Translations under genes and position numbers: made by a program
In this document: piece by piece, positions 33 to 60,198 of the stretch
Numbering within the stretch: the first letter of the stretch is position 1
How the letters are laid out: the number at the start of each line of letters is the position of its first letter
Source of the DNA: Chloroflexota bacterium
GTDB lineage: Bacteria > Chloroflexota > Anaerolineae > DUEN01
Assembly (NCBI GenBank): GCA_013152435.1
Contig: JAADGJ010000059.1
Location: 24,558 to 88,557 of the forward strand
Length of the DNA: 64,000 nucleotides
Reading direction: 5' to 3'
Notes under the pieces: generated by a model
What the model was told of the DNA's origin: nothing
Databases searched by the model: none
The model's input: only the letters and a program-made list of their open reading frames with translations

Positions 33-827
33 GTGAAGCTGGTCCTCTCCCTGGTTCAGATGAACTGCCGGGATGGCATGGTTGAGGCCAACCTGGCGCA
101 CGCGACGGAGGCGGTGCGTGAGGCGGCCGGGCGGGGGTCGGATATCGTCCTGCTGCCTGAGCTCTGGGCCAGCGGTTACGACCTGGAGTACGCCGCTCAG
201 CACGCAGCCCCTTTGGGGGAGGGCGCCTTCGCCCGGTCTGCGGAGCTGGCCTCCCGGTTTCGGGTCTGGCTGGCGGGCTCCTTGCTGGAGCGCGGCCAGG
301 ATGGCTCCTATTACAACACGGCCGCGATCTGGGACTCGTCCGGGGCGTTGCGCGGCGTGTATCGCAAGATCCACCTGTTTCGCCCCATGTCTGAGGACAA
401 GTATCTGGCCGCCGGCGATCGGATGTCCCTTGTCGAGTCCCCCTGGGGTTCCCTCGCGATAGCCATATGCTATGATCTGCGTTTCCCCGAGATGTTCCGC
501 CAATACGCTGTGGCCGGCGCCGGGCTGACTTTGGTCCCCGCCCAATGGCCGCGCGTTCGCGTCTCCCACTGGCAGATCCTGCTGCGCGCTCGCGCGATCG
601 AGGATCAGATGTTCATCGCCGGGTGCAATCGGGTTGGCGCACAGGGCGAGGCCCTCTTCGGCGGCCGGTCGGCGGTGATCGGCCCCTGGGGGGAGGTGTT
701 GACCGAGGGAGGCGAGGAAGAGGAGGTCTTGACGGCCGAGGTGGACCTGGATCAGGTGGAGCGGGCGCGCCGCAAGCTCCCGATCCTTCTCGACCGGCGG
801 CCGGAGCTATATGGCCCCCTCGCGTGA
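33..827 (+). CDS. carbon-nitrogen hydrolase family protein (nitrilase/Nit-like amidohydrolase)
   Basis: 264-aa ORF with GTG start. Glu-Lys-Cys triad contexts LLPELW, RKIHLF and AICYDLRFPE are typical of the CN-hydrolase superfamily. Confidence 0.8.
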   Translation: MKLVLSLVQMNCRDGMVEANLAHATEAVREAAGRGSDIVLLPELWASGYDLEYAAQHAAPLGEGAFARSAELASRFRVWLAGSLLERGQDGSYYNTAAIWDSSGALRGVYRKIHLFRPMSEDKYLAAGDRMSLVESPWGSLAIAICYDLRFPEMFRQYAVAGAGLTLVPAQWPRVRVSHWQILLRARAIEDQMFIAGCNRVGAQGEALFGGRSAVIGPWGEVLTEGGEEEEVLTAEVDLDQVERARRKLPILLDRRPELYGPLA

Positions 828-925: not shown

Positions 926-2473
926 CTACGGGACGAGAGGGCACACGTCGGCGGCCGTGAAGGTGGGGTTGGCGTACCCGTAATCGGCCAGGATCTCGTA
1001 TGCCTCCGGGTGCGGCGTGGGGCCTGTGACGAAGGCGTTCACCGCCGCGCACGCGGCTGCCATGTCCTGCGTTGGCTGGTAGCTGGACCACCAGATATCG
1101 GCGATCTGCGCGTATACGGAGTCCGGGTACTCCGTTTGTAGGAGGTTGACGGTCGCCTCGGCGTTGTCCAAATCGCCCTGGTACCCGTAGGCCATAGCCA
1201 GGCGGAAGGCCGAGAAGCTTCGCAGCTCCTCCAGCTCGTTGGGGCGCACCCAGCACGCGATGAGCGTTGGGTCCTCCAGCGCCTTGCGGTACAGGTTGAT
1301 GGCCTGGGCGAAGTTGTCCGATCGGCCGTTGAGGAATGCCTGGTTGGCGTCCAGCACCGTGTGGTAGAGGCAATCGGACGGATCATAGACCTTTTCGATC
1401 TGGACGTACGGGGCGCCATCGATGGAGGCCCATGTCTCGGTCCAGGCTCGCTGGGGCCCGGCCCCCACGGACCCGATCACGCCGCCGTGGACGACGATCT
1501 CCTTGCCGGAGCCCTCATCGGTCACGTCCTCCAGCCGTACCTCGGGGTACGCCATGGTCAGGGTCCCGTCCATCCAGTTCTGGAACTCCGCATCGACCCA
1601 GGACATCACGTAGACGGACCCGAAGCACGTATGGGCGCCGCAGGTCGTCTCCGTCCATACGATGTCCATGTTCCCATCCTCGTTGATGTCGGCCACGTCC
1701 AGGATCTTCACCTGACCGGCGGCGTTGGCTCGAAAGGCCACGGACCATCCGGCCGAGCGCAGCACGAGCAGATCTCCGGGAGGAGCGGTCATATCCGAGT
1801 TGGGCGTCGTCAGGGCGACGATGATCTCCTTCACCCCGTCCCCGGTGAGGTCCACCGCCCGTACCTGGTCTTTCCCTTTGGCGATGGCGCCGCATGTGGA
1901 GAGCCAGTCGCCCAGGGCCTGGGCATCGCCGTTCGCGTTGGCCAGGAACGCGACGATGGCCGCGTCATAGCCGGCGAGATCGGCCGGGCACGTGGTGGGA
2001 GGAGGCGTGGGAGTCGGGGTCTCCTCCGCCTGTGCTGCTCCGCCGGTGGGGATCCAGATGCGTTCGCCGCGATAGAGCCAGTAGAACCGGTGGATCGCTT
2101 GCGGGTTGGCCTGCTGTAGACGGCGCACGCTGATGCCCGTACGCTGCGAGATCGACGTCCACGAGTCGCCCCTTTGCACCGTGTACCAATATCCGGATTC
2201 CCCGCCCGGCCGGGGGATCCAGATGCGCTCGCCGCGATAGAGCCAGTGGAACCGGTGGATCGCTTGTGGGTTGGCCCGTTGGAGTTCGGCCACGCTGACG
2301 CCGGTGCGCGCAGCGATGGAGGTCCACGTGTCGCCTCGCCGGACGGTATACCAATACCCGTTCCCTTCCTGTGCGGAGGCGAGGGAGACGCTGAGGAGCA
2401 GGATCAACAACACCAGGGCGCCCATCGTCCCCCAGTGATGATGCCGGATAATGGCTCGTTTGATGAATCCCAT
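926..2473 (-). CDS. secreted LysM-domain protein with two tandem LysM modules
   Basis: N-terminal signal-like segment (MGFIKRAII..LLILLLSVSLASAQ). Two near-identical ~48-aa LysM repeats (GYWYTV(R/Q)RGD(T/S)WTSI..GERIWIP) are followed by a Pro/Thr linker and a large C-terminal domain. Confidence 0.75.
   Translation of the reverse strand: MGFIKRAIIRHHHWGTMGALVLLILLLSVSLASAQEGNGYWYTVRRGDTWTSIAARTGVSVAELQRANPQAIHRFHWLYRGERIWIPRPGGESGYWYTVQRGDSWTSISQRTGISVRRLQQANPQAIHRFYWLYRGERIWIPTGGAAQAEETPTPTPPPTTCPADLAGYDAAIVAFLANANGDAQALGDWLSTCGAIAKGKDQVRAVDLTGDGVKEIIVALTTPNSDMTAPPGDLLVLRSAGWSVAFRANAAGQVKILDVADINEDGNMDIVWTETTCGAHTCFGSVYVMSWVDAEFQNWMDGTLTMAYPEVRLEDVTDEGSGKEIVVHGGVIGSVGAGPQRAWTETWASIDGAPYVQIEKVYDPSDCLYHTVLDANQAFLNGRSDNFAQAINLYRKALEDPTLIACWVRPNELEELRSFSAFRLAMAYGYQGDLDNAEATVNLLQTEYPDSVYAQIADIWWSSYQPTQDMAAACAAVNAFVTGPTPHPEAYEILADYGYANPTFTAADVCPLVP
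2045..2362 (-). repeat. internal tandem duplication (~171-bp period) encoding the two LysM modules
   Basis: Plus-strand segments around 2061-2115 and 2221-2290 share cgcgatagagccagtRgaaccggtggatcgcttgYgggttggcc. Confidence 0.6.
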
Positions 2474-2667
2474 GGCGATGCCCTCCTTACGAATCGCGAG
2501 GACGGTCTCGATGCTCCGTATCCAGAGGAGACCAGAGAGATGTGAGTACGGCCTGCTGCATTATACACCAGATCGCATTGACGCTCAATAGTCAGCGTGG
2601 TAGGATAGTGTATCCGGGGGATGGCAAATCTTGTGAGAGGGCCTGCCCCGTGATCGGGTGCGTCTGG

Positions 2668-2926
2668 GAGTATGTCTGAAAAACGCTGTTGCTTCTGCTG
2701 GGAGGAGGCCCGGAGGGGCGGAGCCCCTCCGGAAAAAGCTCTTCTTTTGCCCTCGACCTGTCCAGCCTCGACCTGGGTTCCGCGGAAAGGGCCGAGAAAG
2801 GCAAGTACAGGCCGGAAAGGTGGGATTTCCGTGGAGGGGAGGACCCCTCCACACCTCCCTCTGCGGAGCTGGTCGTTGAGGGAGCCTCCTCAGAACATCT
2901 TGCCGGTAAATTTTCAGACACGCTCT
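2668..2926 (+). repeat. family-1 structured intergenic repeat, copy A (MITE-like, 12-nt TIR GAGYGTGTCTGA / TCAGACACGCTC)
   Basis: Aligns along its length with 19826-20067 and, in reverse orientation, with 59963-60198. The internal inverted repeat is cgacctgYccagcctcgRcc / ggccgagaRaggcaggtacagg. It lies in the divergent spacer between the LysM gene and the exonuclease gene. Confidence 0.7.
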
Positions 2927-3077
2927 GAGCCGGCCGGGATCGCCGCCGGGGGTGGAGCGGGATAGGGATAGCGTAAGCCTGTTCCTCCTTGACTCCTGGG
3001 GCGAGCGCCCTTTCTCCAGCTTGCGGTTCAATGTGGCGTTGTCAGGGTGAAGCATCTCTCTGGGGGAAGCTCGGAAT

Positions 3078-3914
3078 ATGGAATCCATGGGACGTCCATC
3101 GCTTTCGCTGCCGCTTACGCAGGTGCTCTTCACCGTCCTGGACGTGGAGACCACCGGCTTGGATGTCAGCCTTGGGCATCGTCTGTGTGAGATCGCCCTC
3201 GTGCGCGGGCGGGTTGGGCAGGAGCCCGAGGAGTTCTCCCAATATGTCAACCCGGAGCGGCCGGTAGATCCTGGAGCCCGCGCGGTGCATGGGATCCCCG
3301 ATACGGTCCTGTGGCGATCGCCGCGCTTCGCCGAGATCGCCCCATCCGTGCGAGATCTGGTGGAGGGCACTGTGATCGTCGCCCACAACGCCCCGTTCGA
3401 CCTCGGCTTTCTGGCGGCCGAATGGAGGCGTCTGCGGTGGCCCGCGCCGGCCGTGCACATCGTCGATACGCTCTCCCTGGCGCGGCGCTGGTTGCGGCTC
3501 CCAAACAATCGGCTGGGTTCCGTCGCGCGGGCGTTGAGGGTCTCCGTCCGAGGAGCGCACAGCGCTCTGGGCGACGCCCGCATGACCTGGGGGGTCTTGC
3601 AAGCGCTGATTCGTTATCTACAGGGGTATGGATTCACCACTTTGGGCGATCTGATCAACGCGCAGGGCGGGCCCGTGGTCTGGCCTGGCACGATGTGGCA
3701 GAACCTGCCCGATCCGTTGCGGGAGGCGCTTCAGACCGGCCGCAGGCTCTGGTTGCGCTACCTGGGCCAGCGACGTGACCTGACCGAGCGATGGGTCGAG
3801 CCGCTGGATGTGAACGGCGGATATCTGATCGCCTATTGTCACCTGCGTGGAGAACAGCGTACGTTCCGGCTGGATCGGATCCTGGAGATGCGCCTTGAGG
3901 ATAGAAACGCCTGA
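3078..3914 (+). CDS. DEDDh 3'-5' exonuclease (DnaQ / Pol III epsilon-like) fused to a C-terminal WYL domain
   Basis: Exo I motif VLDVETTGL, then HNAPFDLGFL and a late HSALGDARMT motif. The C-terminus RLWLRYLGQ..WVEPLDV..GGYLIAYCHLRGEQRTFRLDRI matches the WYL fold signature. Confidence 0.75.
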   Translation: MESMGRPSLSLPLTQVLFTVLDVETTGLDVSLGHRLCEIALVRGRVGQEPEEFSQYVNPERPVDPGARAVHGIPDTVLWRSPRFAEIAPSVRDLVEGTVIVAHNAPFDLGFLAAEWRRLRWPAPAVHIVDTLSLARRWLRLPNNRLGSVARALRVSVRGAHSALGDARMTWGVLQALIRYLQGYGFTTLGDLINAQGGPVVWPGTMWQNLPDPLREALQTGRRLWLRYLGQRRDLTERWVEPLDVNGGYLIAYCHLRGEQRTFRLDRILEMRLEDRNA

Positions 3915-3950
3915 CCGTTTGTGTCGCGCTCGATGGGGGCGGGCTCACGT

Positions 3951-5150
3951 ATGAGTCCCCGCATTTTGGTCATCGATGACGATGACGATACCCACCTGTT
4001 CCTAAAGCTGACCCTGCAGCCCCACGGTCATCAGGTGATTGGCGCCCACAGCGTGACCCAGGGGCTGAACGCCGCCCGCCGGGAGAATCCGGACCTGATC
4101 GTGTTGGAGGCCGCGATCGAAAACGGGGCGGGGTTCGACCTGTGTCGCCGGCTGCGCCTGTTGCCTGGTGGGCGCGCACGCCCTATTCTGATCGTCTCCC
4201 GCCTGCGCGATCGAGAGGATCTGGTGCGGGGGCTGGAGCACGGCGCCAGCGCTTACCTGACCAAGCCGGCCGATCCAACGGAGCTGGTGGTCCGGGTCCA
4301 CATGCTCCTGCGCTACGATCAGGCGCCTCGCCCTACCGTCATCTTGGTCGTGGGCGCCAAGGGGGGCGTGGGGGCGACCACCATCGCGGTAAACCTGGGC
4401 GTGGCCCTGGCGCGCCGCTGGCGGGAGAAGGTGGCCCTGATCGACGCTGAATTCCCCGGCGGCGATCCGGCCGTCCAGTTGGACCTGCGCCCAACCCACA
4501 CCCTGGCCGATTTGGTCAGCTATGGGCAATCGGTGGACGTGGAGATGGTGGAGGGCGTGCTCCAGGAGCACAGCTCGGGTCTCCGGCTTCTCTCTGCCCC
4601 TATTGGGGTGTTGGACGAATTGCCACCACCCGATTTCCTGGTCCCGATCATCCACCTGATGTCCGGACACCAGACGTATGTGATCGTGGATATGCCCGCC
4701 TCCATGCGGGAACATGTGGAGGTGACGGCTCGGCTGGCCGATCATATCCTGGTGGTCGTGGTGCCGGAGTTAACCGCTTTATCGCGAGCCGGGATGTTGT
4801 TGGATTCCCTCACGAGGCGCCTGGATAGCGATGTGGAGACCCACCCGCAGTTTTGCCTGGTCCTGAATCAGGTCGGCCGTGGGGGAAGCATTCTGGTGGA
4901 CGAGCTACCCGAGGATCTGAAAGCGTATCCCTCCGTGCGCATCCGTTATGATGCGCGCAGGGTGCTGGCGTCCATCAACGCGGGCGTGCCGCTCGTCCTA
5001 CGCTCACCGCGCAGCGCGATCGCTCGCGAGCTCGTGCAACTGGCGCAGTCCTTGCGTCGCCCTGATCCGGCCGAGGAGCACTCGACGATATCCGATCGCA
5101 TCAGGGCCGTGTTGGGCCGGTTCCATGTACCTCGACTGGGCGAGGATTGA
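3951..5150 (+). CDS. response-regulator receiver domain fused to MinD/ParA-type ATPase (CpaE/TadZ-like)
   Basis: REC-like N-terminus (ILVIDDDDDTHLF..D..LIVLE..KP). Deviant Walker A VVGAKGGVGATTIAVNLG sits in the C-terminal domain. The start was chosen at the ATG preceded by GGGGGCGGG; in-frame alternatives exist at 3921 and 3933. Confidence 0.7.
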   Translation: MSPRILVIDDDDDTHLFLKLTLQPHGHQVIGAHSVTQGLNAARRENPDLIVLEAAIENGAGFDLCRRLRLLPGGRARPILIVSRLRDREDLVRGLEHGASAYLTKPADPTELVVRVHMLLRYDQAPRPTVILVVGAKGGVGATTIAVNLGVALARRWREKVALIDAEFPGGDPAVQLDLRPTHTLADLVSYGQSVDVEMVEGVLQEHSSGLRLLSAPIGVLDELPPPDFLVPIIHLMSGHQTYVIVDMPASMREHVEVTARLADHILVVVVPELTALSRAGMLLDSLTRRLDSDVETHPQFCLVLNQVGRGGSILVDELPEDLKAYPSVRIRYDARRVLASINAGVPLVLRSPRSAIARELVQLAQSLRRPDPAEEHSTISDRIRAVLGRFHVPRLGED

Positions 5151-5257: not shown

Positions 5258-6805
5258 ATGGGTTCACGAGACTCCAAGATCATCACCACGTTGCGTCAGC
5301 GTCGCCAGATAGAGCGAGCGATCCAGGCCTTCACGGAGGCGGAAAGCGAGGAGGAGCTCATCGAGCGGGCGGCGGAGATCGCCAGGCAGGGCGAGGTCGT
5401 TCTCCCCGTCCTGCTGGCGTATCTGGGCGCGTCCGATCCTCAGCTGCGCGGCGGGTTGGCCCACATCGCTCGCCTGCTGCCGCGGGAGAAGGTCGTACCC
5501 GCCCTGCGGGCGGCAGCCCGGGATCGAACCCGCTCCGATCGAGAGCGGATGACCGCGATGACCATCCTGGAGCGCTACCTGGACGAGGAGCTGGGGCCCG
5601 ATCTGTTCGAGGGGCTCGCCGATCCTGAGACGTTGGCGTTGGAGTCGCTGCAGGAGGTGTTGGCGGAGGTCCATGAGGATCCGCAGGTGCTCATCGAGTA
5701 CCTGTCCCAGCTGGAGGAGGAGCCGGCGGAGACCGCCCTGATCATCGTGCGGGCGGCGCGACGTGTGGACCCGGCGGACGCCATCGAGCTGCTTCGCATG
5801 CTCTCCCTCGATCCCAGGCGGCGGGTCGCGCAGCAGGCCTTGCGCGAGTTGGGCAGCCTGCGGCTTCCGGCCGCCGTGACGGCCCTGCGGAGCCTGTTGC
5901 CGAACCTGCCCGCCACGCTGAAGCCTTTGGCGGAGCGCAGCCTGCGTAAGCTGCAGCTGAGTGGCGTCCGGGCTCCTGCGCCGGATACCTCGCAATGGCG
6001 GGCGCTGGTCAGCCCCCTGGACAGCGAGGGACGTCAGGCGCTCTGGTTCTTGCGCTCGTCCTCGGAGGAGACGGATCATCTGTTTATCGGGTTGTTGTTG
6101 AACGATCAGATGGGGATTCAGTATGCGTTGAAGGGCGAGGACCTGCCGTTCCCGCACCTGGCGGCTGATCCAGCCATCGGCACCGTTCATGTGGTGCGCA
6201 TGCCCCAGTTGGGGACGTCGGCGCTGTTGTTGGAGGCATCTTTCGACGTGGGGCGTGCGATCCTGCTGGAGGCGATCTCACAGCATTTGGAGAAGGGACA
6301 GCCCTTGCCTATGCCCTATCGGTTTTACTGCGTGCATCTGTGGGCTGTGCCCTGGGCCCCGCCGGAGGAGCCAGAGGCGGAGGCGCCTCCCGATGACGCT
6401 TCCTGGTCTCTGGAGCGCGCCGCCGAGATGCTGAGGCATCCGGCGTTTCATGCCTGGGGGTTGCAGACCCCGTGGGTGTACGACGTGGCCGAATCGCTGC
6501 TTCAGGGCTCGTCCGACTGGCCGGCCGACGAGGAGTTCTCCACCGCGGCCCAGGGGATCGCGGCTCGGGCCTTTGAGGGGCAGATACCGGAGGAGCTAGC
6601 TGATCGGTTGCGGCGCATGAGTCGGTGGCTTCGTCTCGCGGGCGATGCGGAGACGGCCCGGTTGGCGCTCTGGACGGCCGCGCACCTTCGCGATGTCTCG
6701 CCCGCCTCCCATCCGTTCCTGCTCCGTTTGGCCGAGGCGGGCTTGCGGGCCGCCGTGCACAACCTGGCGAGGGGCATAGACCTGCGCCGCCTCTACACGA
6801 TGTGA
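5258..6805 (+). CDS. HEAT / PBS-lyase-like repeat protein, function unknown
   Basis: 515-aa acidic helical-repeat protein. The ATG is preceded by AAGGAAAAAGGG and by a TTGATT-17-GAAATA promoter-like element. Confidence 0.55.
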   Translation: MGSRDSKIITTLRQRRQIERAIQAFTEAESEEELIERAAEIARQGEVVLPVLLAYLGASDPQLRGGLAHIARLLPREKVVPALRAAARDRTRSDRERMTAMTILERYLDEELGPDLFEGLADPETLALESLQEVLAEVHEDPQVLIEYLSQLEEEPAETALIIVRAARRVDPADAIELLRMLSLDPRRRVAQQALRELGSLRLPAAVTALRSLLPNLPATLKPLAERSLRKLQLSGVRAPAPDTSQWRALVSPLDSEGRQALWFLRSSSEETDHLFIGLLLNDQMGIQYALKGEDLPFPHLAADPAIGTVHVVRMPQLGTSALLLEASFDVGRAILLEAISQHLEKGQPLPMPYRFYCVHLWAVPWAPPEEPEAEAPPDDASWSLERAAEMLRHPAFHAWGLQTPWVYDVAESLLQGSSDWPADEEFSTAAQGIAARAFEGQIPEELADRLRRMSRWLRLAGDAETARLALWTAAHLRDVSPASHPFLLRLAEAGLRAAVHNLARGIDLRRLYTM

Positions 6806-7600: not shown

Positions 7601-10446
7601 ATGTCCACCTCGTTCGCCTCGGCGTCATGGACGATGGGCAAGGTAAATTTGAAGGTGCTGCCCTTTTGCGGCTCACTTTCGACCCAGATCCGACCACCGT
7701 GTGCCTCGATGATCCCCCGGCAGATGGCCAGGCCCAACCCGGTGCCCGGCTGATTCTGGTCCTCCGGTATCCGGAAGAACTCCTCAAAGATACGCTTGTG
7801 GAATTCCTGCGCGATGCCGACCCCCTGATCGGAGACGCTGACGGTCATCCAGTCCGTGTCGGCGGTCGCGCCGATCGCGATGGTGCTCCCGGCGGGGGAG
7901 TATTTGGCCGCGTTCTCGACCAGGTTGGAGAGCACCTGCCCAATGCGTTGGCGGTCCGCGAAAACCCTCGGCAGATCGGGCGGGAGGGTCACCTGCAATT
8001 GATGGGATTTGGCCAGCATATGAAGGCGCTCCATGACGTCCTCCAGGATCGCCTCCAGCGGACACGGCACCGGCTTCACCTCCAGGGTGCCGGATTCCAG
8101 ACGCGACATATCCAGCAGTTGGTCGATCAGCTCGGATAGCTTATCGCTCTCGTATTCGATGATGGACAGGAACTCCCGTTGGGAGGCCCTGTCCCATTCG
8201 ACGTCGTCTTGCAGCAGGGTGGAGGCGAATCCCTTGATCGAGGCCAGCGGGGAGCGTAGCTCGTGCGAGATCATCGCCAGGAAGGCGCTCTTCAGGCGAT
8301 CGGCCTCCTGGGCGCGCTCCAGGGCCGCTTGTAGCTCCTTGGTCTGGGCTGCCACTTTCGCCTCCAACACGGCGGAGTGGCGTTGGAGCGTGTTGTAAAG
8401 GCGCGCGTTGTGGATGGCCACGGCGGCGTGATTCGCGAACGCCTGTACCAGCTTCGCCTCCTGGGGATGAAATCCGTCCTCTCCCGACCGGCAGACCTCG
8501 ATGCACCCGATGACCTCCCCTTGCACCACCAGCGGGGCCTTCACCTGCGCGTGATTGGGGCAGGGGGACTCCGGCGCTCCTCGATCCCAGGAGCAGATGT
8601 GTGCCCTGTCCACGGTCATGTGGAGGCTCCCCTGCTGCCAATCCTCCTGTTGCATGTCCACACACGCGCGAATGCCGATCAGGTCTTCCAGGTAGGGGCA
8701 GCCTCGCGCGGCCACCGTGTATGTCTCATCCTCCTCCATCAGCATGATCAGCGCCCCATGATGATGGACGACGGCCGCCAGCCGCTCCAGGATCAGATCG
8801 AGCACCTGATGCAGATCGCGCACCTGGGCGATGGTGGCAGCGATCTCATTCAGTGCCTCCAGCTGCGTCTGTCGCGCTTCCATCTCCGCGAAGAGCCGGG
8901 CGTTCGTGATCGCGATGGCCACGTGATTGGCCAACAGGATCAAGGTCTCCCGCTCCGTCTCGGAGTATATGCGGCCCGCTTCGTCGCTGAAGGCCAGCAC
9001 GCCGATGGGATCCTGGCCCACCAGCAGCGGCACGAACAGGAAGGACCAGTCGGCGACCTCCTCCAGCCCGGGGTACGGGGTGTAGTAGGGTTCATCCCCC
9101 AGACGAGGGGTCATGATGGGACGTCGGGTTCGGAACGCGATCGGCAGGACCCCTTGGTTCAGGGGGAAGCGCATGGTGTGTAAGGGGAGGTCCCCCTGAT
9201 ACCCCTGTACCGCCTTCACGACCAGCTCGTTGTGCTCGGGGTCGTACAGGAGGAGCACCGTGCGAGGCACATGGGCCAGCTCGGAGGCGTATCGGGCGAT
9301 CTGGGTCGCCAGCAAGTCCCAGTCCAGGGTCGCGCTGAGCTGGGTGCTCATCTGCACCAGGGTCTGGAGTTGGTGCGCCCGACGTTCCATCTCCTGGCGC
9401 AGGCGTGCATTGTAGATGGCGATGGCCGCATGGCTGGCGAAGGTGCTCAGCAGTTCCACGTCGGCGGACCGGAATGGCCTGGCCCGTGCCCGCACGACGA
9501 GCAAAGCGCCCAGCTTCTGCCCGCGATGGATCAGGGACACGCAGAGGAGGGGGTGGTCCGTCTCCTCCAGGGCTTTCAGGGGAGAGAAACGCCCAGATTT
9601 CCTCGCCTTGACTGGGCTGATGATCGTATCCCCTGTGTTCGCCACGTATTTGACGATCTCTTCAGCGAGAACGGGATCCAGCAGGGAGGAGGTGGTGGAT
9701 GCGTTGGCCACGATGGCTCGCGTTTCGGCCTGGCCGTCCCCGTTCAGGTAGAGCGCGCTCTCCTCCGCCTGTAGCAGCCGGGCCGCGGCGTCGACCACGG
9801 CCTGTAACAGCTTGTCCAGGTCCTGCTCCGTGTTCAGTCGCTGTGCCAGGCGGCCGATGGTCGCCAACCGATCGGCACGCGCCTGGGCATCCTGAGCCAG
9901 GCGCGCGTTTTGGATGCCCGTGCCCATCTGTTGGCCGATGGTGGCGAGCAGGGAGAGATCCTTGGGGTTGAATCGTCGGTCGGAGAGGTAACCGATGGCG
10001 ATGGTGCCTATGGGGCGTCCTTGCGCGATCAGCGGGACGATGAGGGCGGCACGTGGAATGCCGTCTTTGATCTGATCCTGCTGGGAGACGAGGCCGGATT
10101 GCTGGGGGAGGTTCTCGATGAAAAGGGGCTCTCCCGTCCGCAACACGCGGGCGTGAAGGCTGTTCGGATGCTCGGCTGGGATCTCTCGGAACGCCTGGAC
10201 GAAATCCGCCGGATGGCCATGATGGGCCAGCATGCGTAGCGTGCGGGTCTCATCGTCCAGGACGAACACAACGCCCGCTTCGGCGTCAAACGCCTGGACG
10301 ACCGTCTTCAGCACCGCTTGGGCCAGCTCGGAGGGCTTCAGGGAGAAGGCGGTGATCCTGGCCGTTTGCATCAAGGCAGTTAAGGCATGGGAGCGTTGTC
10401 CTTGGGTGGTTCCTTGGTGCTTCACTTGGGGGATCTCAGCCGGCAC
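7597..10446 (-). CDS. multi-GAF sensor histidine kinase
   Basis: 949 aa with repeated GAF-like blocks (RLFAEMEARQTQLEALNEI, NARLRQEMERRAHQLQTL). HisKA H-box SHELRSPL and HATPase_c N/G boxes (LSNLVENAAKYS, DQGVGI, GTGLGLAICR) follow. GTG start with GAGGAGG RBS. Confidence 0.85.
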   Translation of the reverse strand: MPAEIPQVKHQGTTQGQRSHALTALMQTARITAFSLKPSELAQAVLKTVVQAFDAEAGVVFVLDDETRTLRMLAHHGHPADFVQAFREIPAEHPNSLHARVLRTGEPLFIENLPQQSGLVSQQDQIKDGIPRAALIVPLIAQGRPIGTIAIGYLSDRRFNPKDLSLLATIGQQMGTGIQNARLAQDAQARADRLATIGRLAQRLNTEQDLDKLLQAVVDAAARLLQAEESALYLNGDGQAETRAIVANASTTSSLLDPVLAEEIVKYVANTGDTIISPVKARKSGRFSPLKALEETDHPLLCVSLIHRGQKLGALLVVRARARPFRSADVELLSTFASHAAIAIYNARLRQEMERRAHQLQTLVQMSTQLSATLDWDLLATQIARYASELAHVPRTVLLLYDPEHNELVVKAVQGYQGDLPLHTMRFPLNQGVLPIAFRTRRPIMTPRLGDEPYYTPYPGLEEVADWSFLFVPLLVGQDPIGVLAFSDEAGRIYSETERETLILLANHVAIAITNARLFAEMEARQTQLEALNEIAATIAQVRDLHQVLDLILERLAAVVHHHGALIMLMEEDETYTVAARGCPYLEDLIGIRACVDMQQEDWQQGSLHMTVDRAHICSWDRGAPESPCPNHAQVKAPLVVQGEVIGCIEVCRSGEDGFHPQEAKLVQAFANHAAVAIHNARLYNTLQRHSAVLEAKVAAQTKELQAALERAQEADRLKSAFLAMISHELRSPLASIKGFASTLLQDDVEWDRASQREFLSIIEYESDKLSELIDQLLDMSRLESGTLEVKPVPCPLEAILEDVMERLHMLAKSHQLQVTLPPDLPRVFADRQRIGQVLSNLVENAAKYSPAGSTIAIGATADTDWMTVSVSDQGVGIAQEFHKRIFEEFFRIPEDQNQPGTGLGLAICRGIIEAHGGRIWVESEPQKGSTFKFTLPIVHDAEANEVDI

Positions 10447-19825: not shown

Positions 19826-20067
19826 GAGGGTGTGTCTGAGGAATGCCGTCGCTTCTGCTGTGGGGAGCCCCTCCGGAAAAGGTCCTTCTTCTGCCTTCGA
19901 CCTGCCCAGCCTCGGCCTGGGCCCTTCGGGATGGGCCGAGAGAGGCAGGTACAGGCCGGAAAAGTGGGATTTCCGTGAAGGGGGGACCCCTCCGCACCTC
20001 CCCCTGTGGAGCGGGTCGTTGAGGGAGACCCTCCGGCACCTCTTATTGGAAGTTTTCGGACACGCTC
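19826..20067 (+). repeat. family-1 structured intergenic repeat, copy B
   Basis: Aligns with copy A end to end, with TIRs gagggtgtgtctga / tcggacacgctc. It lies between nadD and the M20 peptidase gene. Confidence 0.7.
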
Positions 20068-20228
20068 TGAGCCTAAGCGGTCGTCGGCGCAGGGTCAGAG
20101 ATTATGTCGGGGGAAGGGGGACGATTCGCTCCCCTTTCCCCGGGTAGTGGGGCTTCCATGCCCCACCTGCGGCGGCATGGAAGCCATCGCTGCCGAATGA
20201 TTTGAATCTGGATCGTGTCGAGGAGCTT

Positions 20229-29799: not shown

Positions 29800-29960
29800 T
29801 GTCTAATGGATGGAAAGGAGAAAGTATCTTCGGGCGGAGGGGAGTCCCTCTCCGGCCTGCACCTGCCTTGCTCGGCCCTTTCCGAAGGATCCAGGCCGGG
29901 GCCGGGCAGGTCGAAGGCAGAATCGGAGGGGGGATCGTGCGGCCGGTCCGAGGAGATGGC
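29800..29960 (-). repeat. degenerate or partial family-1 repeat, copy C (reverse orientation)
   Basis: Core 29835-29935 is the reverse complement of the family-1 central inverted-repeat segment (ttctgccttcgacctgccc..ggccgagcaaggcaggtgcagg). The termini have diverged. Confidence 0.45.
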
Positions 29961-59735: not shown

Positions 59736-59962
59736 CTGCTTTTTGGTGATGATCCCGCATCCCAGCCGGCGAACCCGTGTCCCGCTCTCTACAGTACATG
59801 TCAACGTGAATCGCAAAAGGCTACCAGCGTATGCTATTATATCCTAGCCAGAGCGAAAAGGCAATACGTTTGCTTACCTATGTGGGTGGACGTGATTTCC
59901 CCGTGCCGCTCGTTTTCCTGGCTCCCTCAAAGGTTTCCATCTTTTTTGGCTCGTGTGTGTTA

Positions 59963-60198
59963 GAGCGTGCCTGAGGATTTATCGGCAAGGTGTCTGAGGG
60001 GTCTCCCCCAACGACCCGCTCCACAGGGGGAGGTGTGGAGGGGACCTCCCCTCCACGGGAACCCCCTCGCTTTTCCGGCATGCACCTGCCTTTCTCGGTC
60101 CTTCCCAAGAGATCCAGGCCGAGGCCGGGCAGGTCGAAGGCAGGAGAAGGACTTTTTCCACCCCACAGCAGAAGCAACGGCGTTTCTCAGACACACTC
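59963..60198 (-). repeat. family-1 structured intergenic repeat, copy F (reverse orientation)
   Basis: Its reverse complement aligns end to end with copies A and B, with TIRs gagcgtgcctga / tcagacacactc. Confidence 0.7.

What the first reader, a model, noticed from the sequence alone, without database searches (positions are those of the whole stretch)
3078..3914. DnaQ-type 3'-5' exonuclease fused to a WYL ligand-sensing domain
The N-terminal 180 aa carry the DEDDh motifs (DVETTG, HNAPFD, HSALGDA). The C-terminal ~70 aa match the WYL signature (W..Y..L, GYLIAYCHLRGEQRTFRLDRI). In known systems, WYL domains bind nucleic-acid or nucleotide ligands and control defence or DNA-damage regulators (BrxR, CapW, DriD, PIF1-WYL). 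Here the putative sensor is attached directly to a nuclease, which implies ligand-gated exonuclease activity. The gene stands alone, divergent from a LysM protein and separated from it by a MITE copy.
Basis: partly seen in the sequence, partly recalled or inferred. Interest (0 to 1): 0.55.

Follow-up and report, generated by a model that had tools for sequence, protein, structure and literature searches.

The report
Exonuclease with built-in ssDNA-binding WYL domain
This gene encodes a DnaQ-type 3'-5' exonuclease with a WYL domain as its tail; it belongs to a widespread, catalogued but untested family that sits among ordinary housekeeping genes, and the WYL domain most likely holds single-stranded DNA for the nuclease rather than acting as a defence switch.

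Summary
ORF 3078..3914 (+) encodes 278 aa with Pfam RNase_T (res 20-172, E 5e-29) and WYL (res 213-272, E 3e-13), both above the gathering cut-offs.

It is not a one-off fusion. All 120 listed homologues carry both domains, as do 55 of 57 representative clusters at 50% identity. The family covers Chloroflexota, plus Obscuribacterales, Planctomycetes, Spirochaetota and Chlorobi-like MAGs at about 30% identity. Makarova et al. 2014 already listed WYL fused to a 3'-5' exoRNase. I found no experimental study.

All five DEDDh catalytic residues are invariant (88/88). The five Arg that contact ssDNA in the Pif1 and PafBC WYL domains are kept (82-88/88). There is no HTH and no WCX domain; the WYL is the extreme C-terminus, as in Pif1-WYL helicases, where it is an accessory ssDNA-binding module. 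AlphaFold gives pLDDT 95 and pTM 0.90, which suggests a rigid two-domain body.

Thirty loci share no conserved neighbour. Contexts are housekeeping, with no phage or plasmid copies and no defence hits nearby.

Best reading: a stand-alone chromosomal 3'-5' exonuclease with a cis ssDNA-binding WYL module. "Ligand-gated" remains possible but unsupported. Interest is modest.

The parts
3078..3914 (+). Exonuclease-WYL gene, 278 aa including stop codon; alternative start ATG at 3087 (275 aa)
   Evidence: ORF list. 100%-identical database protein P0001 starts at the second ATG. A GGGGGAAG Shine-Dalgarno-like stretch lies 8-9 nt before 3078 (sequence).
3135..3593 (+). DEDDh (DnaQ/RNase T-type) 3'-5' exonuclease domain, residues 20-172. 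Catalytic residues are D22, E24 (Exo I), D108 (Exo II), H161 and D166 (Exo III).
   Evidence: Pfam RNase_T E 4.8e-29. TIGR00573 dnaq subfamily domain above its cut-off. Foldseek to Pol III epsilon 2gui/1j53 with TM(target) 0.85, rmsd 2.0 A, 34% identity. All five catalytic residues invariant in 88/88 family members.
3594..3713 (+). C-terminal helix of the exonuclease module plus a conserved linker, residues 173-212. Contains the near-invariant 'L..L...QGG' and P211.
   Evidence: Invariant or near-invariant L189, L192, Q196, G197, G198, P211. Modelled at pLDDT 89-98. NCBIfam PRK07883, PolC and DinG models align up to about residue 192-197.
3714..3893 (+). WYL domain, residues 213-272: one helix plus five beta-strands, Sm/SH3-like. 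The motif reads xYL (G248-Y249-L250). Arg face: R238, R257, R261, R264, R267.
   Evidence: Pfam WYL E 2.7e-13. PADLOC WYL models. Profile versus PDB: PafBC 6sj9 E 2e-17, PafC 7p5x 2.5e-12, DdPif1 8bnv 4e-12. DSSP H212-220 and strands at 224-229, 235-246, 249-254, 259-264, 268-273. Arg mapping and conservation 82-88/88.
2665..2940 (.). MITE-like dispersed repeat in the 604-bp upstream intergenic region. This is context, not part of the protein's function.
   Evidence: blastn copies at 19864-20073, 59962-60198 and 29847-29922. Alignment at 83% mean column identity. Imperfect terminal inverted repeat 2652-2682 / 2911-2941.
3921..5150 (+). Downstream same-strand gene (receiver domain + ParA/MinD-like P-loop ATPase), probably co-transcribed in this lineage only.
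   Evidence: 7-38 nt gap with no terminator-like site. Pfam Response_reg + AAA_31/ParA. Same arrangement in the 67%-identical orthologue L003/L004, absent from more distant orthologues.

Best explanation
The gene encodes a catalytically competent DEDDh (DnaQ-type) 3'-5' exonuclease. Its C-terminal WYL domain is a built-in binding module for single-stranded nucleic acid, most likely ssDNA. The exonuclease active site takes the 3' end. The WYL domain appears packed rigidly against the catalytic core. It uses its conserved arginine face to grip the same strand further towards the 5' end. That would raise affinity for ssDNA or 3'-tailed substrates and probably increase processivity or fix the substrate's register. 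This is the role the C-terminal WYL plays in thermophilic Pif1 helicases, and by analogy the role of the SH3-like domain in E. coli exonuclease I. The gene is a vertically inherited, single-copy chromosomal gene of Chloroflexota and some other phyla. It works without a dedicated partner, probably in DNA repair, recombination or end processing, and is not a phage-defence effector. Shown: domain identities, conservation of the catalytic and Arg-face residues, absence of HTH and WCX, family breadth, and lack of a conserved or defence neighbourhood. Inferred: ssDNA as the ligand, cis substrate tethering rather than an on/off switch, DNA rather than RNA, and the repair role.
For: Both domains pass the curated cut-offs. 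D22, E24, D108, H161 and D166 are invariant in 88/88 members, so the enzyme is active throughout the family. The nearest sequence and structure relatives of the nuclease domain are DNA exonucleases: Pol III epsilon, PolC exo, SaDinG exo and PRK07883. The WYL profile matches PafBC/PafC and the DdPif1/SsPif1 C-terminal WYL at E 2e-17 to 2e-9. R238, R257, R261, R264 and R267 align to DdPif1 R464/R491/R495/R498/R501 and PafBC R520/K543/R547/R550/R553, and are kept in 82-88 of 88 members. Those Pif1 residues are the ones modelled or mutated as ssDNA contacts (PMC9964779). The TePif1 WYL is required for high-affinity ssDNA binding and couples ATPase to unwinding (bioRxiv 10.1101/163188). The solved WYL-ligand complexes described in the CapW paper (DriD, CapW) contain ssDNA (PMC11662680). 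No HTH or WCX was detected, and the protein ends 6 residues after the WYL domain, as in DdPif1 (WYL 438-508 of 510). The AF2 model has pLDDT 95 and pTM 0.90, with the linker at pLDDT 89-98. No neighbour is shared by 30 non-redundant loci. Contexts are tRNA synthetases, GatCAB, glycogen and cell-wall genes, and UvrD. No defence-specific PADLOC hit occurs in the window neighbours; the only hit is a weak one to a histidine kinase's ATPase domain. GC and GC3 match the neighbours and there is a single copy in the window. No phage record covers 80% or more of the query. The plasmid look-alikes I examined are exonuclease-UvrD fusions without WYL.
Against: No biochemical data exist for any family member. 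I could not obtain model coordinates, so I could not test whether the WYL Arg face lines up with the exonuclease substrate groove. A rigid packing (pTM 0.90) is equally compatible with allosteric coupling. WYL domains can bind other ligands: ssRNA in WYL1 (my own knowledge) and c-di-GMP in an L. plantarum regulator (PMC11880434, abstract). Makarova et al. called the fused nuclease an 'exoRNase', so RNA is not excluded. One homologue (L089) sits among NACHT, caspase-like, SIR2 and PD-(D/E)XK genes.
Confidence: 0.5

Rival explanations
1. Ligand-gated exonuclease. The WYL domain is an allosteric sensor. Binding of free ssDNA, or of a nucleotide second messenger, changes the interdomain geometry and switches an otherwise idle exonuclease on or off.
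For: In HTH-WYL-WCX proteins, ssDNA binding to WYL is transmitted allosterically to another domain (PMC11662680). A WYL regulator is reported to sense c-di-GMP (PMC11880434). This WYL subtype's nearest non-family relatives are PafBC-type sensors. The linker is conserved and confidently modelled, and pTM is 0.90, so the domains are mechanically coupled.
Against: The architecture lacks the WCX domain, which helps form the ssDNA pocket in CapW/DriD, and the dimeric HTH scaffold those switches use. The only characterised enzyme-WYL fusion (Pif1) uses WYL as an extra substrate-binding site, not a trigger. The likely ligand (ssDNA) is also the enzyme's substrate, so a separate 'signal' is unnecessary. 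There is no genomic link to signal-producing enzymes such as cyclases, CD-NTases or Cas10.
Confidence: 0.22
2. An RNA exonuclease for RNA maturation or turnover (RNase T or oligoribonuclease-like), with the WYL/Sm-like domain binding single-stranded RNA.
For: Pfam RNase_T covers both RNA and DNA enzymes. There are weak hits to the Rv2179c-like exoribonuclease family in several members. Makarova et al. labelled the fusion partner '3'->5' exoRNase' and related WYL to Sm-like RNA-binding barrels. Neighbours in some loci are translation genes such as tRNA synthetases, GatCAB and L28.
Against: The best sequence and structure matches are DNA exonucleases (epsilon 34% identity, PolC exo, DinG exo, PRK07883), ahead of RNase T. 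The closest WYL relatives (PafBC, Pif1, DriD) bind ssDNA. The neighbourhood is not conserved, so the translation-gene proximity is not informative.
Confidence: 0.13
3. The replicative proofreading subunit (functional Pol III epsilon) of these bacteria, with WYL replacing the epsilon C-terminal tail.
For: The exonuclease domain is epsilon-like (TIGR00573 above its cut-off; 2gui TM 0.85). The gene is widely conserved and single-copy in the window. In the closest relative, dnaX-ybaB-recR lie about 3-5 kb away.
Against: All NCBIfam epsilon equivalog models score far below their cut-offs (for example 107.5 versus 196, and 104.8 versus 222.7). No epsilon-type C-terminal alpha-binding segment is present. 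The conserved 'QGG.V.WP' stretch does not fit the canonical clamp-binding motif as I recall it, and it is modelled as packed. The dnaX proximity is on the opposite strand and is lost in other lineages.
Confidence: 0.07
4. A single-gene anti-phage or anti-plasmid defence effector that degrades invader DNA when its WYL domain senses infection-derived ssDNA.
For: PADLOC hits to the candidate system PDC-S48 and to CRISPR-associated DEDDh and WYL models. WYL domains are enriched near defence systems (PMC4012209). One homologue lies beside NACHT, caspase-like, SIR2 and PD-(D/E)XK genes.
Against: The PDC-S48 matches cover only the nuclease part of longer profiles (5-170 of 411; 14-223 of 512). Six of seven inspected contexts and the 30-locus clustering show housekeeping neighbours and lineage-following synteny. 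The window neighbours have no defence hits of note. Composition is native. The architecture is absent from 50,697 phage records and from the plasmid hits I examined.
Confidence: 0.06

Closest known systems
Pif1-WYL helicases of thermophilic bacteria (TePif1, DdPif1 8BNV, SsPif1 8BNS)
   Same: A nucleic-acid enzyme carries a single WYL domain as its extreme C-terminus, with no HTH and no WCX. The WYL sequences are related (profile E 4e-12 and 2e-9). All five ssDNA-contact arginines are conserved. In TePif1 the WYL is an accessory ssDNA-binding module acting on the enzyme's own substrate.
   Different: The catalytic module is an SF1B helicase there and a DEDDh exonuclease here. Polarity is reversed: a 5'-3' translocase versus a 3'-5' exonuclease. 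There are no biochemical data for the exonuclease fusion.
PafBC / PafC, DriD, CapW, BrxR (wHTH-WYL-WCX transcription factors)
   Same: The WYL fold and the Arg-rich ligand face. PafBC is the best PDB sequence match (E 2e-17), and PafBC-type proteins are the nearest non-family WYLs in the 1.8-billion-protein library. Their ligand is ssDNA.
   Different: Those proteins are dimeric DNA-binding regulators with HTH and WCX domains and no enzymatic domain. This protein has neither HTH nor WCX and carries a nuclease instead.
DNA polymerase III epsilon, PolC exonuclease domain, DinG-type exonuclease domain, PRK07883 DEDD exonucleases
   Same: A DEDDh catalytic core with all motifs. 34% identity and TM 0.85 to E. 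coli epsilon. The NCBIfam alignments extend through the post-catalytic helix to about residue 196.
   Different: No equivalog cut-off is reached. The C-terminal partners (alpha-binding tail, polymerase, helicase, GIY-YIG) are replaced by WYL.
E. coli exonuclease I (SbcB)
   Same: A DnaQ-fold 3'-5' ssDNA exonuclease combined in one chain with a small SH3-like beta-barrel that helps hold ssDNA and confers processivity (my own knowledge of the ExoI structures). ExoI appears among the Foldseek hits (4hcc, 4js4).
   Different: Only the nuclease domain superposes (rmsd 13-14 A over 282-286 columns). ExoI has a further helical domain and an SSB-binding site. There is no sequence relationship between its SH3-like domain and WYL. 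This is an analogy only.
WYL + '3'->5' exoRNase' architecture listed by Makarova et al. 2014 (PMC4012209)
   Same: The same domain combination was already catalogued. NCBI annotates members as 'WYL domain-containing protein' or 'exonuclease domain-containing protein'.
   Different: That paper only lists the fusion and frames WYL as a defence-system ligand sensor. No function, context analysis or experiment is given.

Membership tests
DEDDh / DnaQ-like 3'-5' exonuclease superfamily (Pfam RNase_T PF00929) | HMM score above the curated cut-off | tested here: met
   102.5 bits versus cut-off 24, E 4.8e-29, residues 20-172
DEDDh / DnaQ-like 3'-5' exonuclease superfamily (Pfam RNase_T PF00929) | Exo I (DxE), Exo II (D) and Exo III (H-x4-D) catalytic residues | tested here: met
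   D22, E24, D108, H161 and D166 are present and invariant in 88/88 homologues
DEDDh / DnaQ-like 3'-5' exonuclease superfamily (Pfam RNase_T PF00929) | RNase H-like alpha/beta fold superposable on epsilon | tested here: met
   The AF2 model (pLDDT 95) versus 2gui/1j53 gives TM(target) 0.85, rmsd 2.0-2.1 A
DEDDh / DnaQ-like 3'-5' exonuclease superfamily (Pfam RNase_T PF00929) | 3'-5' exonuclease activity | not testable with these tools
   Needs an enzyme assay
WYL domain (Pfam PF13280) | HMM score above the curated cut-off | tested here: met
   50.1 bits versus cut-off 21.8, E 2.7e-13, residues 213-272. 57/57 representative clusters also match.
WYL domain (Pfam PF13280) | Sm/SH3-like five-stranded beta-barrel preceded by a helix | tested here: met
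   DSSP on the model: H212-220, then strands 224-229, 235-246, 249-254, 259-264, 268-273.
WYL domain (Pfam PF13280) | Conserved W-Y-L strand and Arg-rich ligand face | tested here: met
   Y249-L250 are kept in 86/88; the W position is not conserved (G248 here). R238, R257, R261, R264 and R267 align to the Pif1 and PafBC ligand arginines and are kept in 82-88/88.
WYL domain (Pfam PF13280) | Binding of ssDNA or another nucleic-acid ligand | not testable with these tools
   Needs a binding assay or a structure
wHTH-WYL-WCX regulators (PafBC, DriD, CapW, BrxR) | N-terminal winged-helix DNA-binding domain | tested here: not met
   No HTH family hit at E<=1; the N-terminus is the exonuclease
wHTH-WYL-WCX regulators (PafBC, DriD, CapW, BrxR) | C-terminal WCX domain | tested here: not met
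   No WCX (PF25583) hit, and the protein ends 6 residues after the WYL domain. The WCX model does detect PafBC-like proteins in the same session.
DNA polymerase III epsilon subunit (DnaQ proper) | NCBIfam equivalog score above the cut-off | tested here: not met
   PRK05711 107.5 versus 196; TIGR01406 104.8 versus 222.7; PRK06310 88.5 versus 236
DNA polymerase III epsilon subunit (DnaQ proper) | C-terminal clamp-binding motif and alpha(PHP)-binding tail | tested here: not met
   The C-terminus is a WYL domain. 'QGGPVVWP' does not fit the Q-x-x-[LM]-x-F pattern as I recall it, and it is modelled as packed at pLDDT 89-98. Checked by eye only.
PADLOC candidate defence system PDC-S48 | Full-length match to the system's protein profile | tested here: not met
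   Matches cover only profile positions 5-170 of 411 and 14-223 of 512, i.e. the nuclease part
PADLOC candidate defence system PDC-S48 | Location in defence islands or mobile elements | tested here: not met
   Neighbours are housekeeping. The one exception is L089. No phage copies, and none among the plasmid hits I examined.
CRISPR-associated DEDDh / WYL accessory proteins | Adjacency to cas genes or a CRISPR array | tested here: not met
   No cas-family neighbour within about 7 kb in the window or in the annotated homologue loci. CRISPR arrays were not searched for explicitly.

The most novel reading that the evidence does not exclude
The WYL domain is a true cis-acting allosteric switch. Binding of ssDNA (a damage or replication-stress signal) or of a nucleotide messenger to the WYL face licenses an otherwise latent exonuclease. 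That would make this family the first case of a WYL sensor wired directly to a nuclease, and a phylum-wide housekeeping one rather than a defence accessory.
Probability: 0.2. Interest if true: 0.55.

Novelty: new member of a known kind. Interest (0 to 1): 0.3.

Why it matters
WYL domains are now understood mainly as ssDNA sensors on transcription factors that control DNA-damage and phage-defence genes. The only enzyme-linked case studied so far is the Pif1 helicase. This family is a compact 280-aa enzyme-WYL fusion that models very confidently and is conserved across Chloroflexota and several other phyla. That makes it a convenient system for asking whether a WYL domain on an enzyme merely tethers substrate or transmits a signal. 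It may also identify the missing ExoI/ExoX-type 3'-5' ssDNA exonuclease in lineages whose DNA-repair toolkit is poorly known. As a discovery it is incremental: the architecture is already catalogued and annotated, and nothing in the genomic evidence points to a new kind of system.

Tried and rejected
- **Defence-island hypothesis.** I clustered the +/-4 ORFs around 30 non-redundant full-length homologues, inspected seven gene-called contexts and ran PADLOC on the window neighbours. No conserved or defence partner emerged, so I rejected it. L089 is the one exception.
- **SOS/LexA control.** GAACN4GTWC occurs once in the window, inside a gene at 8437, and not upstream of the gene. This is no more than chance.
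- **Structured RNA in the long 5' region.** Rfam at E<=1 gave only a meaningless hit.
- **Mobile-element carriage.** tblastn against phages found no match covering 80% or more of the query. The plasmid hits with high coverage that I examined proved to be exonuclease-UvrD helicase fusions without WYL.
- **Clamp-binding motif in the conserved 'QGG.V.WP' linker.** By eye it does not fit the canonical pattern as I recall it, and it is confidently packed in the model. I did not pursue it.
- **Short (100-130 aa) 'stand-alone WYL' hits in the representative library.** Many begin inside the Exo III helix, so they are probably truncated gene calls, not a separate family.
Full report

Yes. An ORF runs from 3078 to 3914 on the + strand and encodes 278 aa. 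Pfam assigns RNase_T to residues 20-172 (E 4.8e-29, 102.5 bits, cut-off 24). It assigns WYL to residues 213-272 (E 2.7e-13, 50.1 bits, cut-off 21.8). PADLOC's CRISPR-associated DEDDh and WYL models agree. A 100%-identical database protein (P0001, a Chloroflexi MAG) starts at the second ATG (3087, 275 aa). Either start is possible, and nothing below depends on the choice.

**2. Side claims**

The 604-bp intergenic region between the divergent LysM gene (926..2473, -) and this gene contains a dispersed repeat at about 2665-2940. Further copies lie at 19864-20073 (+) and 59962-60198 (-), with a partial copy at 29847-29922 (-). Identity is 81-83%, and there are imperfect terminal inverted repeats (TGTCTGAAAA...TTTTCAGACA). 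"MITE copy" is a fair description.

"The gene stands alone" is only half right. Locally, a gene for a receiver domain fused to a ParA/MinD-like ATPase (3921..5150, +) begins 7-38 nt after the stop codon, with no terminator-like site between them. The same pair occurs in the 67%-identical orthologue. The pairing disappears in more distant orthologues, so there is no conserved functional partner.

**3. It is a large conserved family, not a unique fusion**

All 120 listed homologues (45-100% identity, 250-355 aa) have precomputed RNase_T+WYL domains. Source names point to Chloroflexi, Anaerolineae, Ardenticatenia and Caldilineales.

Searching only the linker+WYL part (102 aa) against 1.84 billion cluster representatives gave 722 hits at E<=1e-3. 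Of the 57 size-matched sequences I scanned (this protein plus 56 representatives from the top 150), 55 carry RNase_T and all 57 carry WYL.

A species-level genome scan found full-length copies in Anaerolineae and Chloroflexia MAGs. At about 30% identity it also found them in Obscuribacterales, Planctomycetaceae/Pirellulaceae, Spirochaetota, a Chlorobiaceae-labelled MAG and a Proteobacteria-labelled MAG. Eight of these distant copies were confirmed by Pfam.

Makarova et al. 2014 already list WYL combined with a "3'->5' exoRNase" among WYL architectures (PMC4012209). I found no paper that characterises such a protein.

**4. Anatomy**

Across 88 aligned members the five DEDDh catalytic residues (D22, E24, D108, H161, D166) are invariant. 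The nuclease is therefore under selection to be active.

The nuclease domain is closest to DNA exonucleases:
- E. coli epsilon (34% identity; Foldseek TM 0.85, rmsd 2.0 A)
- the PolC exonuclease domain
- the S. aureus DinG exonuclease domain
- the actinobacterial PRK07883 DEDD exonucleases

It does not reach any epsilon equivalog cut-off.

A helix and a linker (residues 173-212) follow, with the near-invariant L189, L192, Q196-G197-G198 and P211.

The WYL domain consists of a helix (212-220) plus five strands, and the protein ends six residues later. No HTH and no WCX domain is present. A profile of the module matches PafBC (E 2e-17), PafC (2.5e-12) and the C-terminal WYL of the Pif1 helicases DdPif1 and SsPif1 (8bnv 4e-12, 8bns 2e-9). 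Weaker matches follow to BrxR, CapW and DriD.

R238, R257, R261, R264 and R267 align with DdPif1 R464/R491/R495/R498/R501 and with PafBC R520/K543/R547/R550/R553. They are conserved in 82-88 of 88 members. These are the residues identified as ssDNA contacts in Pif1 and related WYL domains (PMC9964779). The W of the W-Y-L motif is not conserved (G248 here), while Y249 and L250 are.

AlphaFold2 with the 88-sequence alignment gives mean pLDDT 95 and pTM 0.90, with the linker at pLDDT 89-98. This suggests a fixed arrangement of the two domains rather than a flexible tether. No solved structure matches both domains together.

**5. Genomic context**

Gene-called contexts of six homologues at 47-67% identity are all different. 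They consist mostly of housekeeping genes:
- glucose-1-phosphate nucleotidyltransferases, FemAB, ThrRS and Ham1
- LeuRS, GatCAB and L28
- an acyltransferase, a LysM-YkuD protein and Ham1
- UvrD, a methyltransferase and cytochrome c maturation genes

Only one locus (L089) lies among conflict-type genes: NACHT, trypsin-TPR, caspase-like, SIR2 and PD-(D/E)XK.

Clustering the +/-4 ORFs around 30 non-redundant full-length loci found no family shared beyond lineage-local synteny. The largest clusters were 5-6 loci within the Obscuribacterales group and 4 loci sharing a LysM protein in Anaerolineae.

In the window, the neighbours are a CN-hydrolase, a LysM protein, the REC-ParA-like protein, an unassigned 515-aa protein, an OmpR-type regulator and a GAF histidine kinase. 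Their only PADLOC hit is a weak one to the kinase's HATPase domain. The gene's GC (0.65) and GC3 (0.77) are like its neighbours', and there is one copy in the window. There is no GAACN4GTWC LexA-type box upstream.

Among 50,697 phage records, none covers 80% or more of the protein. The high-coverage plasmid hits I examined are exonuclease-UvrD helicase fusions without WYL.

**6. How it most likely works**

Shown:
- an intact DEDDh nuclease
- an intact WYL domain with the ssDNA-contact arginines
- no HTH and no WCX
- a confident AF2 model (pTM 0.90) that suggests a compact two-domain body
- no conserved partner and no defence context

Established elsewhere:
- The WYL-ligand complexes described in the CapW paper (DriD, CapW) contain ssDNA bound on the Arg face (PMC11662680).
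- In TePif1 the C-terminal WYL is needed for high-affinity ssDNA binding and couples ATP hydrolysis to unwinding (bioRxiv 10.1101/163188).

Inferred: here the WYL domain binds the single strand whose 3' end is in the exonuclease site. It would give a second, 5'-ward hold on the substrate and so raise affinity, processivity or substrate selection (ssDNA and 3' tails). The analogy is with Pif1-WYL and, functionally, with the SH3-like domain of E. coli exonuclease I (my own knowledge; the Foldseek ExoI hits superpose only the nuclease part). The biological role would be a stand-alone 3'-5' exonuclease in DNA repair, recombination or end processing. I put about 0.5 on this package.

**7. Rivals**

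WYL domains do transmit ligand binding in transcription factors. One is reported to sense c-di-GMP. A rigid interface could carry a signal. However, the WCX and dimer scaffold used by those switches is missing, and the probable ligand is also the substrate.
- An RNA substrate (about 0.13) cannot be excluded from sequence.
- A replicative proofreader (about 0.07) and a defence effector (about 0.06) are each contradicted by tests run here.

**8. Comparison, novelty and score**

The protein is a member of the DEDDh exonuclease superfamily and carries a bona fide WYL domain. It is not a member of the HTH-WYL-WCX regulators, of Pol III epsilon proper, or of PADLOC's PDC-S48. It works most like Pif1-WYL, with an exonuclease in place of the helicase.

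The architecture has been catalogued since 2014 and is routinely annotated, so this is a new member of a known but uncharacterised kind.

Interest is 0.3. A specialist would not be surprised by the fusion. The family is nonetheless a clean, small, well-modelled system for asking what a WYL domain does when attached to an enzyme. Its housekeeping, phylum-wide distribution also runs counter to the usual defence framing of WYL domains.

Noticed in passing
window 2652-2941; copies at 19864-20073 (+), 59962-60198 (-), partial 29847-29922 (-): A MITE-like dispersed repeat of about 200-270 bp with imperfect terminal inverted repeats (TGTCTGAAAA...TTTTCAGACA) and 81-83% identity between copies. It inflates the intergenic region upstream of the exonuclease-WYL gene to 604 bp, and it lies between the sigma-70-like sites (2560-2606) and the start codon.
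   Followed up: partly
window 3921-5150 (+) and 5258-6805 (+): Immediately downstream is a receiver domain fused to a ParA/MinD-like P-loop ATPase (possibly co-transcribed; 7-38 nt gap). Next comes a 515-aa protein with no Pfam hit at E<=1e-5 (weak HEAT_2 in the orthologue). The trio is syntenic in the 67%-identical relative L003/L004, but the link to the exonuclease gene is lost in more distant genomes.
   Followed up: partly
window 3642-3713 (residues 189-212): The linker between the nuclease and WYL domains carries a near-invariant 'L..L...QGG' and a conserved P211, and is modelled at high confidence. NCBIfam PolC, DinG and PRK07883 exonuclease models align through about residue 196. This helix-plus-QGG element therefore seems to be a shared C-terminal extension of that exonuclease subfamily. 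Its role is unknown.
   Followed up: no
L089 1-13857 (Chloroflexi MAG, GCA_024232355.1): One homologue overlaps by 4 nt the end of a 1139-aa trypsin-TPR protein. It is surrounded by NACHT-HEAT-FGE-sulfatase, PD-(D/E)XK, caspase-like beta-propeller and SIR2_2 genes. This is the only conflict-system-like neighbourhood among the contexts examined.
   Followed up: no
L090 6965-9235 and L091 6953-8917 (Rhodococcus megaplasmids): DEDDh exonuclease fused to a UvrD-type SF1 helicase (654-756 aa, no WYL). It lies about 4-5 kb from a very large N6-DNA methylase gene on non-mobilizable 216-249 kb plasmids. This is a different nuclease fusion that surfaced as a false full-length look-alike.
   Followed up: partly
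proteins P0124, P0127, P0136, P0141, P0145 and others: Many 100-130 aa 'proteins' in the representative library that match the linker+WYL module begin inside the Exo III helix of the nuclease domain. They are probably truncated gene calls from short contigs, not stand-alone WYL proteins.
   Followed up: partly
L001 3689-4297, L008 and L087 5129-5782: A Ham1/RdgB-type non-canonical NTP pyrophosphatase gene lies about 4 genes upstream of the exonuclease-WYL gene in three Anaerolineae-type loci. This may be residual synteny or a weak functional hint towards nucleotide-pool and DNA hygiene.
   Followed up: no
L003/L004 2293-4998: In the closest syntenic relative, dnaX-ybaB-recR lie about 3-5 kb upstream on the opposite strand. 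By synteny (the CN-hydrolase at window 33-827 corresponds to L003 5481-6284), the same cluster should lie just beyond the left edge of this window.
   Followed up: no
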